This document shows, piece after piece, positions 54,001 through 57,000 of a stretch of DNA of 64,000 nucleotides. Position numbers: made by a program. This stretch comes from Rhizobium sp. Q54 (GTDB lineage Bacteria > Pseudomonadota > Alphaproteobacteria > SHVZ01). Where the stretch lies: NCBI GenBank assembly GCA_945871425.1, contig CAMBVS010000009.1, forward strand, positions 1,894 to 65,893, in the 5' to 3' direction. Within the stretch, counting starts at the first letter, position 1; each line of letters opens with the position of its first letter.

Positions 54001-57000
54001 TGCGAAACGTGAATCAGCTGCTTGTTGAAGATGATGAGGTCGCCGGGCGACATCGGCCGGCACGCCCGGTTGCGGAAGCCCGTGGTCGAGACCGCCGCCA
54101 GCCACTGCTCGGACTTGCTGTCGTCCAGAAGCTCGGGCTCGTTCTGGCTGCCTTCGAAGACGGCCATGCCGCCGCACACGTCGTCGATCTCGACCAAGGG
54201 CACCCACACGGTGAGGAAGTCGGAGAGGTGCTGGTTGTAGGTAATGTCCTGATGAGGCGGCACGGCGGCGCCGAAATTGTTCGGGAGGATGAACCGCGCC
54301 GTCGGCGGCATGTGCATGAAGATCGGGCGCCCGCCGAGAGCGGCGTCCAGGACCGCCCGCAGGCCCGCGTCCCTGGGAATGACCCAAAGCCGCTCGGACA
54401 GCCGCGTCGCCAACGGGAAATGGCCGAGCATGATCGACTGGGCGGCCTCCGGCAGATCCCCGGGGCGGGCCTCCGCCAGGACGGCCGCGACCTTGCGGCC
54501 GTTGTCGGGGTCGTCCGCATGGATGTCCCAGGGCGCCATCTCGGCAAACGCCTGGGCCAGGCTCTCTTGCAGAAATGCATGCACCGAGCCCACGACCCCC
54601 GGCGACAGGACGCCGCGAAGGATCTGGTAACCGTCCCGCTTCAGGCCCGAGATGTCGACGCCCGCCATTGAAGCATCCGCTGGCTGATTCATGACGATTA
54701 CGCTTTCGCCGCGGCCTTGCGAGCGGCGAAATGCCCCTCGGCAACGCGCCATTGATCATACCATAACCGGCTGGAAACGAAGCGGAGCGGGCTCGCCGCG
54801 TCGCTCGAACGACGAATCGGCGTCACCAGGAACTGAACAGGTGGCGGTGGCGGCGAAGGAAGCCCTGGCCGGCCCGCGCCCCCGCCTCGCCGACCGAGTA
54901 AGGGCGCAGCAGGGCGAGCCAGCGGTTCTGCAAGGCCTCGTCCTCCTCCGAATAGCTGGCGCGTCTGTCGGCCTTTTCCAGCATCTCCTCGGTGAGGGTG
55001 AGGATGTCTTCGGCTTCGCTGTCGACGGCTTCGAGGCCGCGATCCGCCAGGCACCTGGAATCGTAGGTGAGCGCCAGCGGCATCCGCATGCTTTCGTCGA
55101 AAGTCAGAAAGCGGCCGCTCTGCCGCTCGCGGATCAGCTTCGGGATGAACAGATCCGACTTGCTGGCCATCCGGTCGCCGGGCGGAAAGAAGTTCGTGGC
55201 GGCGACCGGCACGCCGAAGTTCAAGCCGACGACCATCATGCCGGACGTCGTCGCGAGGATGAAGCGGCAGCTCGCCGCGAGGAACACATCCATCCAGTCC
55301 GAGCGTTCGGCCGACAGCGCGTAGTCGACGACGTTCGCCATCGCCGGCAGCGGCGTCATGGTCGGATCGCCGAGGCGGACGACCCAGCCGCCGTGGCGCG
55401 TGATCGCCTCGATCGCCGGGAAGAAGGCGCGGATGTCGGCGTTCCGTGCGGCTTCCGGCGATGCGGGATCCTCGCGGAGATAGCCGGTCTCGCGGACATG
55501 GACGCAGACGAACCAGGCGCCGGCGGGTACGCCGAGGCGCCGCAGGTTCTCCTGCCCGCACTCCGCATGGTCGCGCCTCAGATCGAGGAGCGGTCCGCGT
55601 CCCTGACGCTGCCACTCCTCCTGTACCGCGTGATAGACACGATTCTTCGACATGGCACGGCCGTCGGGCAGGCGCATGTAGACGGGATTGAAGGGGACGC
55701 GGTCCTTCAGGGGCGCGATCCGCTCGATCAGCTTCGGATCGTCGATCACCGTGACGTATTGCCGCCAGTAGTCGAGGAGGCACGGGTTGACGACGCGCTC
55801 GCGCGGCGCAATCAACAGCGTGACGAAGGGCGGCAGCCACCCCAGCAGCTTCATCTTCACGTGAAGCTCGAGCTGATGGGCCATCTCGCCGATCCGCGTA
55901 GTCAGCTCGTCGGGGAACAGGATGCGGAAGCCATGCGCGCCAAACTCGTCGGCCGCGGCGCGGGACATCTCTGCGTCGATGAGGGTCGTGCAGAAGCGGG
56001 TGGCCTCCGCCTCCTCGCCGATGTCGCGCAGATACTGGACGACCGGGATGACGACGGCGGGATTGTCGGGGATGCGCTCGGCGGCGATGCGGGCCGGCTT
56101 CATCACCAGCTCGCGCGGCGCCCCTGCCTCCTGCAGCGCGCCGGCCAGGGTGACAAAGCCTTCAGTATAAGCTTGGTCCTCGACCACCGCCCGATAGAAG
56201 CATTTCATTGCCTCTTCGAAGCGGTCGGCGCCATGCAGGATCATGCCGCGCGCGACATGGGCCTCGCCGAAGGGGCGTCGGAGGCCGGTGACCCGCCGCA
56301 GCCAGAGATCCGCCTCGTCGATGCGCTTGACCCGGCCGAGCCCCTTGCCCAGCCGCAGCGTCAGCCCCTCCTGCGCCGGCGCAAGCGCGACCGCGGCGTA
56401 GAGGCTTTCGATTCCACGCGGTCCGTCGCCGGCGACGATCCGGGCCTCGCCCAGATCGGCGCGCCAGCCGGCATTGGTCGGCTCGATGCGCACCGCCATC
56501 TCCAGATGCGCGACGCCCTCGATGAGGCCTGCGGCGATCATGGCGAGACCGGTCTCGTGATGGGCGCGGCCGTTCTGCGGCGCCGCCTGCAGCACGGCGC
56601 CGAGGATGCCGACGGCTTCGGTGAGTTTGCCTGCCTCCCGCTGCGCCCGGGCGGCCTCGATCATCGCCGACAGATGCAGTCCGGTCATGCCCGTCCGGCA
56701 AGCACGCGACGTATGACGGAAGCGGCGCGCTCCGCCTCGGCCTCGGTCAGCGAGAAATGCGAGGGTAGCCAGAGGCCCCGCTCGGAAGCGCCGATCGCCG
56801 CCTCGAAGCCCGCGTCATCCTGCCTGTAGCTGTCCTGGCGGTGGATCGGCAGCCAGAAGCGGCGGCTGCCGATCTTCTCGGCCGTCAGCGCCGCCTCGAC
56901 CGCGTCGGCGCGCTCGATCAGCGCATCGGTCCACTGGGTGATCTCGCCGCCATTGTGATCGACTGCCGGCAGCACGATCCCCGGACAGTCGCCGAGCAGC

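What the first reader, a model, noticed from the sequence alone, without database searches (positions are those of the whole stretch)
54823..56688. TPR-fused putative glycosyltransferases are the only transferase candidates (second copy 62121-64000)
The locus has no conventional polysaccharide glycosyltransferases. Both genes combine N-terminal TPR arrays with a conserved non-TPR C-terminal domain (only partly inside the window for the second). TPR-fused transferases are known for protein O-glycosylation (OGT-like, and motility-associated transferases in flagellin glycosylation islands). This supports a protein, rather than lipid-linked polysaccharide, acceptor.
Basis: inference. Interest (0 to 1): 0.55.

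Follow-up and report, generated by a model that had tools for sequence, protein, structure and literature searches.

The report
Two different TPR-fused flagellar glycosyltransferases
Two genes in a sugar-making island inside a flagellar gene cluster each fuse a protein-binding TPR array to a sugar-transferring domain, but the two domains are unrelated (one OGT-like, one from an unstudied family), and both most likely decorate flagellar protein with unusual sugars.

Summary
Both genes are real, but they are not copies of each other (BLASTP E = 1).

**Gene A** (54823-56688, minus strand, 621 aa) has about seven TPR-like helix pairs. These are followed by a GT-B domain that matches NCBIfam TIGR04372 (E 2.5e-61). 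Its nearest solved folds are GT9 heptosyltransferases: WaaF, WaaC and the protein heptosyltransferase TibC.

**Gene B** (62121 onwards, plus strand) is cut by the window end. An otherwise identical metagenome contig gives the full 1036 aa: a long TPR array plus a GT41 (OGT/SPINDLY) domain. That catalytic domain lies outside the window.

**Context.**
- No other glycosyltransferase family was found among the called genes from about 6 kb to the window end.
- Downstream of 64000 lie flgF, flgG, flgA, flgH, fliX and flgI, not transferases.
- The roughly 32-kb island encodes only soluble sugar-nucleotide enzymes and sits between fliLM and flgFG.
- More distant TIGR04372 genes lie directly after a flagellin gene (a Rhodospirillaceae MAG, next to Maf) and in a Hyphomicrobiales flagellar island.

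The protein-acceptor reading is therefore supported, but only by circumstantial evidence. TIGR04372 is a large, mostly TPR-fused family, and I found no paper that names it. I rate this a new variant of the known FlmG-type logic.

The parts
54823..56688 (-). Gene A: 621-aa TPR + TIGR04372-family GT-B protein (putative protein glycosyltransferase)
   Evidence: ORF. TIGR04372 E 2.5e-61. AF2 pLDDT 94.2, pTM 0.85. The exact protein is present on 16 metagenome contigs.
55951..56688 (-). Gene A, aa 1-246: about seven TPR-like helix pairs (presumed acceptor-binding module)
   Evidence: 14 helices in the AF2 model. The profile hits solved TPR arrays. Pfam single-sequence hits are sub-threshold.
54823..55950 (-). 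Gene A, aa 247-621: GT-B catalytic module. The TIGR04372 HMM covers aa 391-594, which is nt 54907-55518.
   Evidence: C-terminal model pLDDT 92.9. Foldseek: WaaF 1PSW E 4.7e-6, TibC 4RAP 9.7e-6, GT9 3TOV TM 0.49/0.54, WaaC. Invariant residues include W392, H397, R399, G434, G440, D455 and D467.
62121..64000 (+). Gene B, first 626 of 1036 codons: TPR array plus linker of a TPR-GT41 (OGT/SPINDLY-like) protein. The catalytic domain lies beyond the window end (to about 65231 in window-equivalent coordinates).
   Evidence: Full length comes from L001:1458-4568(-), which differs from the window by 1 mismatch over 19 kb. PF13844 E 2.3e-56. Human OGT 6e-60, XcOGT 3.6e-54.
56685..62017 (-). Five-gene sugar-nucleotide cassette co-directional with gene A: NDP-sugar dehydrogenase (60656-62017), epimerase/4,6-dehydratase-like (59679-60659), C-methyltransferase (58432-59682), NeuD/VioB-type N-acetyltransferase (57785-58429), DegT aminotransferase (56685-57788)
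   Evidence: Pfam and NCBIfam. Four of the five junctions, including DegT/gene A, overlap by 4 nt (coordinates). The same order is kept in orthologous loci L011 and L012.
51437..54668 (.). Two TylF-type O-methyltransferase / PhyH-type dioxygenase pairs downstream of gene A: 53859-54668(-), 53066-53839(-), 52189-53076(+), 51437-52192(+)
   Evidence: Pfam. TylF and PhyH also follow gene A orthologs.
33243..51230 (.). Rest of the glycosylation island: FkbM methyltransferase, split transketolase, methyltransferases, epimerases/dehydratases, a second NDP-sugar dehydrogenase, GFO oxidoreductase, HldE-like kinase/nucleotidyltransferase, two DegT, TAL_FSA, GmhB-like HAD, GmhA-like SIS_2, LysR regulator
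   Evidence: Precomputed Pfam on the otherwise identical contig. All are predicted soluble.
21491..32848 (.). Left flanking flagellar genes: fliE, flgC, flgB, a small FlhB-like gene, fliO, fliP, a 1062-aa TPR-like protein, a MotB_plug protein, fliM, two fliL

Best explanation
The two genes encode different cytoplasmic glycosyltransferases, each guided by a TPR array. They belong to a flagellar glycosylation island of an uncultured alphaproteobacterium. In each protein the N-terminal TPR array most likely binds the acceptor protein before export. The acceptor is most likely flagellin or another exported flagellar axial protein. The C-terminal GT-B domain then transfers a sugar from a nucleotide-sugar made by the island. 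Gene B is a GT41 (OGT-like) enzyme, probably UDP-sugar dependent, and is the better candidate for the protein-linked sugar. Gene A is a TIGR04372-family GT-B with a GT9-like fold. It is translationally coupled to a cassette predicted to make a C-methylated, N-acetylated amino-deoxy sugar. It transfers that sugar, or possibly a heptose-derived one, either to the protein or onto the first sugar. Shown here: domain identities, fold, operon structure, flagellar context and its conservation. Inferred: glycosyltransferase activity of TIGR04372, the acceptor, the donors and the order of action.
For: Gene A: TIGR04372 E 2.5e-61. Its GT-B model is confident and its top structural neighbours are all GT9 glycosyltransferases, including the protein heptosyltransferase TibC. 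Gene B: GT41 E 2.3e-56, human OGT 6e-60. In the alignment it keeps residues aligned with the positions I recall as hOGT H498, K842, K898, H901, R904, T922 and D925; that numbering is from memory. Context: the island lies between fliL/fliM and flgF/flgG/flgA/flgH/fliX/flgI. This arrangement is kept in orthologs of 55-60% identity (L011, L012, L016, L017). Independent relatives of about 40% identity give the same signal. In L057, flagellin is followed by three tandem TIGR04372 paralogs, then Maf, TylF and GT41. In L052, flagellin, a TIGR04372 gene and FlgD lie in one locus. The 28 island proteins checked show no membrane segment; the only two hydrophobic peaks lie in the soluble dehydrogenase and DegT enzymes. 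Pfam shows no flippase, polymerase or PGT family. Across the family, TPRs are detectable in at least 36 of 60 sampled representatives. TIGR04372 loci are rich in NDP-sugar-modifying genes: epimerases in 35-45, C-methyltransferases in 25 and DegT in 25 of 78 loci. Precedent: the TPR domain of FlmG binds flagellin and its GT-B domain sets donor specificity (PMC7591256; bioRxiv 10.1101/2022.03.25.485807). The TPR of Maf-1 does the same job (bioRxiv 10.1101/2023.12.03.569772).
Against: No filament flagellin gene lies in the window or within 10 kb past gene B. The only Flagellin_N/C protein there looks like FlgL. Flagellar neighbours were found for only 5 of the 76 genome loci (L015, where only GT41 is seen at a contig end, L016, L017, L052, L057) plus the two metagenome orthologs L011 and L012. 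Many family members occur in non-flagellated Microcoleus, Planctomycetes and an archaeon, so flagellin is not the family's general acceptor. I found no paper that names TIGR04372. TM-scores to GT9 structures are moderate (0.44-0.54), and sequence-profile links to GT9 and to TPR-GT9 proteins are insignificant.
Confidence: 0.6

Rival explanations
1. A and/or B glycosylate non-flagellar proteins, such as a pilin, an adhesin, an S-layer protein or many cytoplasmic proteins as eukaryotic OGT does. On this reading the island merely inserted into the flagellar cluster.
For: A cyanobacterial TPR-GT41 (Ogt) is needed for pilin glycosylation (PMC9306852). TPR-TIGR04372 genes abound in non-flagellated Microcoleus sugar clusters. 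No flagellin gene is adjacent.
Against: The position between fliLM and flgFG is conserved in orthologs of 55-60% identity. Independent TIGR04372 paralogs sit directly downstream of a flagellin gene, beside Maf.
Confidence: 0.15
2. Gene A acts on a non-protein acceptor, for example an LPS core or capsule sugar as its GT9 structural neighbours WaaC and WaaF do. Its TPR array would then only scaffold an enzyme complex.
For: The top fold hits are LPS heptosyltransferases. The island encodes GmhA-, HldE- and GmhB-like heptose genes.
Against: The island has no flippase, polymerase, initiating phosphoglycosyl transferase or exporter. GmhA and GmhB homologs accompany only 3 and 1 of 78 family loci. 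TPR fusion is the rule in this family. Gene A gives no hit to the GT9 Pfam model.
Confidence: 0.15
3. The TIGR04372 domain is not a glycosyltransferase but some other GT-B-fold, nucleotide-sugar-binding enzyme, such as a 2-epimerase-like enzyme.
For: UDP-GlcNAc and UDP-diNAcA 2-epimerases appear among weaker Foldseek hits (E about 1e-3, TM about 0.22). No biochemistry exists for the family.
Against: All 25 best hits (E < 1e-3, probability 1.0) are GT9 transferases with roughly twice the TM-score. On this reading the island would be left with a single transferase for what are predicted to be at least two sugar pathways.
Confidence: 0.07

Closest known systems
FlmG (Caulobacter crescentus CCNA_01524; Brevundimonas subvibrioides)
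   Same: Same architecture and size as gene A: 596 vs 621 aa, an N-terminal TPR and a C-terminal GT-B. Both are cytoplasmic, alphaproteobacterial and encoded among flagellar and sugar genes. In FlmG the TPR binds flagellin and the GT-B domain sets donor specificity (PMC7591256; 10.1101/2022.03.25.485807).
   Different: FlmG transfers pseudaminic or legionaminic acid, and no NeuB/PseI-type synthase appeared among the island's Pfam hits. FlmG is reported to be confined to Caulobacterales (10.1101/2023.12.03.569772). I could not retrieve the FlmG sequence. The TPR+GT9-like proteins that resemble it (primer-encoded peptide SGQDLRG against the motif GAQDIAGK) show no profile similarity to gene A's catalytic domain (hhalign probability 0.4%).
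GT41: human OGT, Xanthomonas XcOGT (2JLB), Arabidopsis SPINDLY; GT41 genes in enterobacterial flagellin glycosylation islands
   Same: Gene B has the same TPR + GT41 architecture, with strong sequence matches. GT41 genes were already noted bioinformatically in flagellin glycosylation islands (PMC4875605).
   Different: Gene B's TPR region is about 570 aa and Ala/Arg-rich. Donor and acceptor are unknown. It sits in an alphaproteobacterial flagellar cluster and is paired with a second, unrelated TPR-GT. Gene A is not GT41.
GT9 heptosyltransferases WaaC and WaaF, and the protein O-heptosyltransferase TibC (BAHT family)
   Same: These are the nearest solved folds to gene A's catalytic module. They share a short SG-containing motif in the donor-binding domain. 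TibC modifies a protein using ADP-heptose, and the island has heptose-activation genes.
   Different: No significant sequence similarity: PDB profile E 0.65, and no PF01075 hit. WaaC and WaaF lack TPRs and act on lipid A-Kdo. TibC is an iron-containing dodecamer without TPRs.
Maf (motility accessory factor) flagellin glycosyltransferases
   Same: Functional analogue. Maf-1 uses a fused TPR domain to select flagellin (10.1101/2023.12.03.569772). A Maf gene lies next to TIGR04372 paralogs in L057.
   Different: Maf has an MptE-like/GT-A-type catalytic domain with a C-terminal TPR and transfers nonulosonic acids. No Maf gene is in this window.

Membership tests
TIGR04372 family glycosyltransferase (NCBIfam) | Score above the curated cutoff of the TIGR04372 domain HMM over its full length | tested here: met
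   Gene A scores 206.7 bits against a cutoff of 45, E 2.5e-61, profile positions 1-207 of 207. Homologs are named TIGR04372 by NCBI and JGI.
TIGR04372 family glycosyltransferase (NCBIfam) | Demonstrated glycosyl transfer by a family member | not testable with these tools
   A full-text search found no paper that names TIGR04372. Activity is inferred from fold and gene neighbourhood.
GT41 (OGT/SPINDLY), gene B | PF13844 Glyco_transf_41 above the gathering score | tested here: met
   191.6 bits against 25, E 2.3e-56, on the full-length protein from L001. The domain lies outside the window.
GT41 (OGT/SPINDLY), gene B | Conserved catalytic and nucleotide-binding residues (hOGT K842, K898, H901, R904, D925; numbering recalled from memory) | tested here: met
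   The aligned motifs are FYK, EKPMHLAR and TSLD in the phmmer alignment to human OGT. H920 and T921 are replaced by G and V.
GT41 (OGT/SPINDLY), gene A | Sequence similarity of the catalytic domain to GT41 or to gene B | tested here: not met
   BLASTP of A against B gives E = 1. Gene A has no PF13844 hit. Full-length Foldseek hits to OGT are driven by the TPR region, with TM 0.2-0.3.
GT9 heptosyltransferases (PF01075) | Sequence match to the GT9 model or to solved GT9 proteins | tested here: not met
   No PF01075 hit for gene A. A family profile against PDB gives 1PSW at E 0.65 over 30 residues only.
GT9 heptosyltransferases (PF01075) | GT-B fold closest to GT9 structures | tested here: met
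   Foldseek: 1PSW 4.7e-6, 4RAP 9.7e-6, 3TOV TM 0.49/0.54, 6DFE and 2H1H, all at probability 1.0.
FlmG-class flagellin glycosyltransferases | N-terminal TPR plus C-terminal GT-B in one soluble polypeptide of about 600 aa | tested here: met
   AF2 models. No TM segment or signal-like hydrophobic stretch.
FlmG-class flagellin glycosylation | Homology of the catalytic domain to FlmG | tested here: inconclusive
   The FlmG sequence could not be obtained. The TPR+GT9-like proxy group A3 against gene A's domain gives hhalign probability 0.4%, E 0.15.
FlmG-class flagellin glycosyltransferases | TPR binds flagellin; flagellin is glycosylated in a manner dependent on the enzyme | not testable with these tools
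   Needs two-hybrid or pull-down assays and glycoproteomics.
Flagellin glycosylation island | Sugar-biosynthesis and transferase genes embedded in flagellar genes, next to flagellin | tested here: inconclusive
   The island is embedded between fliLM and flgFG-flgAH-fliX-flgI. No filament flagellin lies within reach, and the nearby Flagellin_N/C gene is FlgL-like. Flagellin adjacency is seen only for relatives L057 and L052.

The most novel reading that the evidence does not exclude
TIGR04372 proteins are a previously unrecognised, very large class of TPR-guided protein O-glycosyltransferases: more than 8000 clusters at 50% identity, most of them TPR-fused. Their GT9-like GT-B module would form a further class of flagellin glycosyltransferase alongside FlmG and Maf in Rhodospirillales- and Hyphomicrobiales-like Alphaproteobacteria. 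Elsewhere, for example in Microcoleus and Planctomycetes, they would be retargeted by TPR divergence to other secreted proteins. In this island gene A and the GT41 enzyme would together build a flagellar glycan from C-methylated amino-deoxy and heptose-derived sugars.
Probability: 0.4. Interest if true: 0.7.

Novelty: new variant of a known kind. Interest (0 to 1): 0.5.

Why it matters
How cytoplasmic O-glycosyltransferases pick flagellin out of all cell proteins has so far been worked out for FlmG and Maf-1. In both, a fused TPR domain selects the acceptor. This locus places the same TPR-plus-catalytic-domain logic on two other catalytic scaffolds side by side: GT41 and the uncharacterised TIGR04372 GT-B. 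Gene A also has a dedicated, translationally coupled donor-sugar cassette. That gives a concrete functional hypothesis and a reconstitution design for a family of more than 8000 protein clusters that no paper in the searched library names. It also points to a chemically unusual flagellar glycan, given the C-methyltransferase, the PhyH hydroxylases, the split transketolase and the heptose genes. If the hypothesis fails, the finding is still a correct annotation of two TPR-fused glycosyltransferases.

Tried and rejected
1. 'Second copy': rejected. A and B share no similarity and belong to different families.
2. The 383-aa Flagellin_N/C gene about 9 kb past gene B as the acceptor flagellin: rejected as evidence. 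It matches FlgL models as well as it matches flagellin models.
3. tblastn with E. coli FliC and Caulobacter FljK found no flagellin in the window.
4. Gene A as a dedicated heptosyltransferase, tested by gene neighbourhood: weak. GmhA and GmhB homologs occur in only 3 and 1 of 78 family loci.
5. Sequence-level link of gene A to GT9 or to TPR+GT9 (FlmG-like) proteins: none.
6. Getting the FlmG sequence failed by three routes. These were two exact primer-derived DNA scans of metagenomes, a profile search for named hits, and the paper's supplement, which holds only primers.
7. A plasmid-collection search with 52-64 kb of the window found nothing.
8. A sigma-54-type motif upstream of gene B was not matched. 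The one match in the window lies upstream of flgB.
9. The full-length Foldseek search was dominated by TPR hits and said little about the catalytic domain. I repeated it on the C-terminal model.
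Full report
**What is at the coordinates**

The ORF at 54823-56688 (minus strand) is intact. It is 621 aa long, starts with ATG and has the GC3 of real genes in this 68% GC window (0.86).

The exact gene A protein occurs on 16 public metagenome contigs. One of them, ena:ERZ27265269:k141_1340492 (L001), differs from window 44823-64000 by a single base and extends 2688 nt further. That contig gives the full-length second gene, 1036 aa.

**The two proteins are not copies**

Gene A matches NCBIfam TIGR04372 ('TIGR04372 family glycosyltransferase') over the whole 207-position model. 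The score is 206.7 bits against a cutoff of 45, E 2.5e-61, covering aa 391-594. It hits no Pfam glycosyltransferase model.

Full-length gene B carries PF13844 Glyco_transf_41 (E 2.3e-56). It matches human OGT (6e-60), Xanthomonas XcOGT 2JLB (3.6e-54) and SPINDLY (1e-40).

BLASTP of A against B gives E = 1. The GT41 match in B starts near aa 650. The window therefore holds only B's TPR array and linker.

**Gene A anatomy**

Single-sequence Pfam TPR hits fall just below threshold. A 36-homolog profile, however, hits solved TPR arrays very strongly (OGT TPR 1W3B, E 1.2e-58). The AF2 model (pLDDT 94.2, pTM 0.85) shows 14 helices over aa 3-246, followed by two alpha/beta lobes.

Foldseek with the whole model was dominated by TPR proteins. 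I therefore modelled aa 240-621 alone (pLDDT 92.9, pTM 0.92). Its 25 best PDB matches, all with E < 1e-3 and probability 1.0, are GT9 enzymes:
- WaaF, 1PSW: E 4.7e-6, TM 0.44/0.49
- the protein O-heptosyltransferase TibC, 4RAP/4RB4
- a Veillonella GT9, 3TOV: TM 0.49/0.54
- WaaC

UDP-sugar 2-epimerases and KpsC follow with about half the TM-score.

At sequence level the link is insignificant. A family profile against PDB gives only 1PSW at E 0.65, over a 30-residue SG motif. Gene A is therefore a GT-B protein whose nearest known fold is GT9, but it is not a GT9 member.

**Gene B anatomy**

In the alignment to human OGT, gene B keeps the residues aligned with the positions I recall as H498, K842, K898, H901, R904, T922 and D925. 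H920 and T921 are replaced. This is consistent with an active enzyme that probably uses a UDP-sugar. The residue numbering comes from my own knowledge of OGT.

**Context**

Precomputed Pfam annotations on the otherwise identical contig give the following gene order:
- housekeeping genes
- fliE, flgC, flgB, a small FlhB-like gene, fliO, fliP, a 1062-aa protein, a MotB_plug protein, fliM and two fliL (about 21.5-32.8 kb)
- a roughly 32-kb block of sugar enzymes (33.2-62.0 kb)
- gene B
- beyond the window: flgF, flgG, flgA, flgH, a DksA-like gene, fliX, flgI, a rod-binding protein and a 383-aa Flagellin_N/C protein

That last protein matches FlgL models as well as flagellin models, all below their cutoffs. 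I do not count it as a filament flagellin.

No called gene in this stretch carries any other glycosyltransferase family. Of the 28 island proteins checked, none has a convincing transmembrane segment. The only two hydrophobic peaks lie in the soluble dehydrogenase and DegT enzymes. Nothing resembles a flippase, polymerase, initiating phosphoglycosyl transferase or exporter.

**Operon structure and likely donor sugar**

Gene A is the last gene of a co-directional run: NDP-sugar dehydrogenase, epimerase/4,6-dehydratase-like, C-methyltransferase, NeuD/PglB/VioB-type acetyltransferase, DegT aminotransferase, then gene A. Four of the five junctions overlap by 4 nt (coordinates). TylF O-methyltransferase and PhyH dioxygenase pairs follow. 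Gene B is transcribed divergently across a 103-bp gap.

By analogy with known deoxy-amino-sugar pathways, the cassette would make a C-methylated, N-acetylated amino-deoxy sugar nucleotide. The rest of the island adds GmhA-, HldE- and GmhB-like heptose genes, a split transketolase and a transaldolase-like gene. At least two donor sugars are therefore plausible. All of this paragraph is inference.

**Comparative evidence**

Orthologs of gene A at 55-60% identity keep the same cassette, the TPR-GT41 neighbour and flgF/flgG (L011, L012, L016, L017).

Two more distant relatives, about 40% identity over the catalytic module (E 1e-71 to 1e-81), are the more telling.
- In a Rhodospirillaceae MAG contig (L057), a 513-aa flagellin with a 31% Ser/Thr centre is followed directly by three tandem TIGR04372 paralogs. 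Next come a Maf gene (Maf_flag10_N + MptE-like), a GT1-like gene, TylF and a TPR-less GT41.
- In a Hyphomicrobiales MAG (L052), a flagellin gene, amino-sugar genes, a TIGR04372 gene and FlgD share one locus.

The family as a whole is not flagellar.
- A scan of GTDB species representatives found 296 relatives. They include many Microcoleus paralogs, Planctomycetes, Verrucomicrobia, Acidobacteria, CPR bacteria and Methanoperedens.
- Only 5 of the 76 loci fetched show flagellar or GT41 neighbours of the window's type.
- An exhaustive HMM search found 8278 representatives (50%-identity clusters) at E <= 1e-3, and 3875 at E <= 1e-30.
- In most of the best 150, the module starts after residue 100.
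- Pfam detects TPRs in at least 36 of 60 sampled members.
- Family loci are rich in sugar-nucleotide-modifying genes: epimerases/dehydratases in 35-45, SAM methyltransferases in 38, DegT in 25, C-methyltransferases in 25 and transketolase subunits in 13-18 of 78 loci. GmhA occurs in only 3.

These counts support glycosyltransferase function in general. They argue against a family-wide heptose specificity.

**Comparison with what is known**

FlmG of Caulobacter is 596 aa. Its N-terminal TPR binds flagellin and its C-terminal GT-B domain sets Pse/Leg specificity. It is sufficient for flagellin glycosylation in heterologous hosts (PMC7591256; 10.1101/2022.03.25.485807). Maf-1 of Shewanella uses a C-terminal TPR in the same way, and FlmG is said to be confined to Caulobacterales (10.1101/2023.12.03.569772). 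GT41 genes have been noted in enterobacterial flagellin glycosylation islands (PMC4875605). A cyanobacterial TPR-GT41 is needed for pilin glycosylation (PMC9306852).

Gene B is therefore a new member of a known kind. Gene A has FlmG's architecture on a different catalytic family.

I could not obtain the FlmG sequence. A proxy group of TPR+GT9-like proteins resembles FlmG's primer-encoded junction peptide. It shows no profile similarity to gene A's domain (hhalign probability 0.4%). No paper in the searched library mentions TIGR04372.

**Verdict**

The interpretation of a protein acceptor, most likely flagellar, is the best-supported reading. I put it at about 0.6. It rests on context and analogy, not on a demonstrated acceptor.

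I rate the novelty as a new variant of a known kind. The interest is moderate. It comes mainly from giving a very large, unstudied, TPR-fused glycosyltransferase family a testable function.

Noticed in passing
window 33243-62017: The island encodes an unusually elaborate sugar chemistry. It has GmhA/HldE/GmhB-like heptose activation genes, a split transketolase plus a TAL_FSA aldolase, three DegT aminotransferases and a TylC3-type C-methyltransferase. It also has an FkbM and several SAM methyltransferases, two NDP-sugar dehydrogenases and two TylF/PhyH pairs. This suggests higher-carbon or branched, hydroxylated and methylated sugars.
   Followed up: partly
window 22713-22726 (-): A sigma-54-type -24/-12-like motif, TGGCACGGTGTTTG, lies 38-51 nt upstream of the flgB start, in the divergent flgB / flhB-like intergenic region. 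It is the only match in the window, against 0.19 expected by chance.
   Followed up: partly
L057:309-12569 (uncultured Rhodospirillaceae CAJANL010000309.1): A flagellin gene is followed by three tandem TIGR04372 paralogs of about 510 aa with short TPR-like N-termini. Then come Maf, a Glyco_trans_1_2 protein, TylF and a TPR-less GT41. This is a compact flagellin glycosylation island with four kinds of transferase.
   Followed up: partly
L012:1472-4580 (GCA_044223515.1, JBGALV010000040.1): In this ortholog locus the TPR-GT41 gene is called as two genes: a 460-aa TPR protein and a 503-aa GT41 protein. This is either a natural split or a frameshift or assembly error.
   Followed up: no
L092:22084-23111 (about 9 kb past the stop of gene B): A 383-aa Flagellin_N/Flagellin_C protein matches FlgL (TIGR02550, 4.5e-24) and 'flagellin' PRK08913 about equally, both below cutoff. 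It is probably hook-associated protein 3 rather than filament flagellin.
   Followed up: partly
window 24569-27757 (-): A 1062-aa ORF lies between the MotB_plug gene and fliP in the most GC-rich part of the window (73.8%). It has only faint TPR/YbgF-like matches around aa 600-790 and no family assignment.
   Followed up: partly
window 48255-49205 (+): A LysR-family regulator (HTH_1 + LysR_substrate) is embedded in the middle of the sugar island, in the opposite orientation to its neighbours.
   Followed up: no
window 1-5900: This stretch is poorly coding and lower in GC (62% at 4-6 kb), with no ORF of high GC3. The ORF at 5208-5636 has an HTH-like N-terminus that recalls, from memory, a transposase fragment; this was not tested.
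   Followed up: no
L014 and L021-L047 (Microcoleus spp.): Non-flagellated Microcoleus genomes carry several TPR-TIGR04372 paralogs per locus. They sit in sugar clusters with transketolase, TylF, FkbM, GLF, SIS_2 and radical-SAM genes. Some representatives elsewhere have two catalytic modules in one protein of 1300-1850 aa.
   Followed up: no
window about 30148-32300 versus contig k141_1340492: Gene coordinates mapped from the otherwise identical metagenome contig are shifted by 3 nt beyond this interval. This implies a 3-bp indel between the window and that contig.
   Followed up: no
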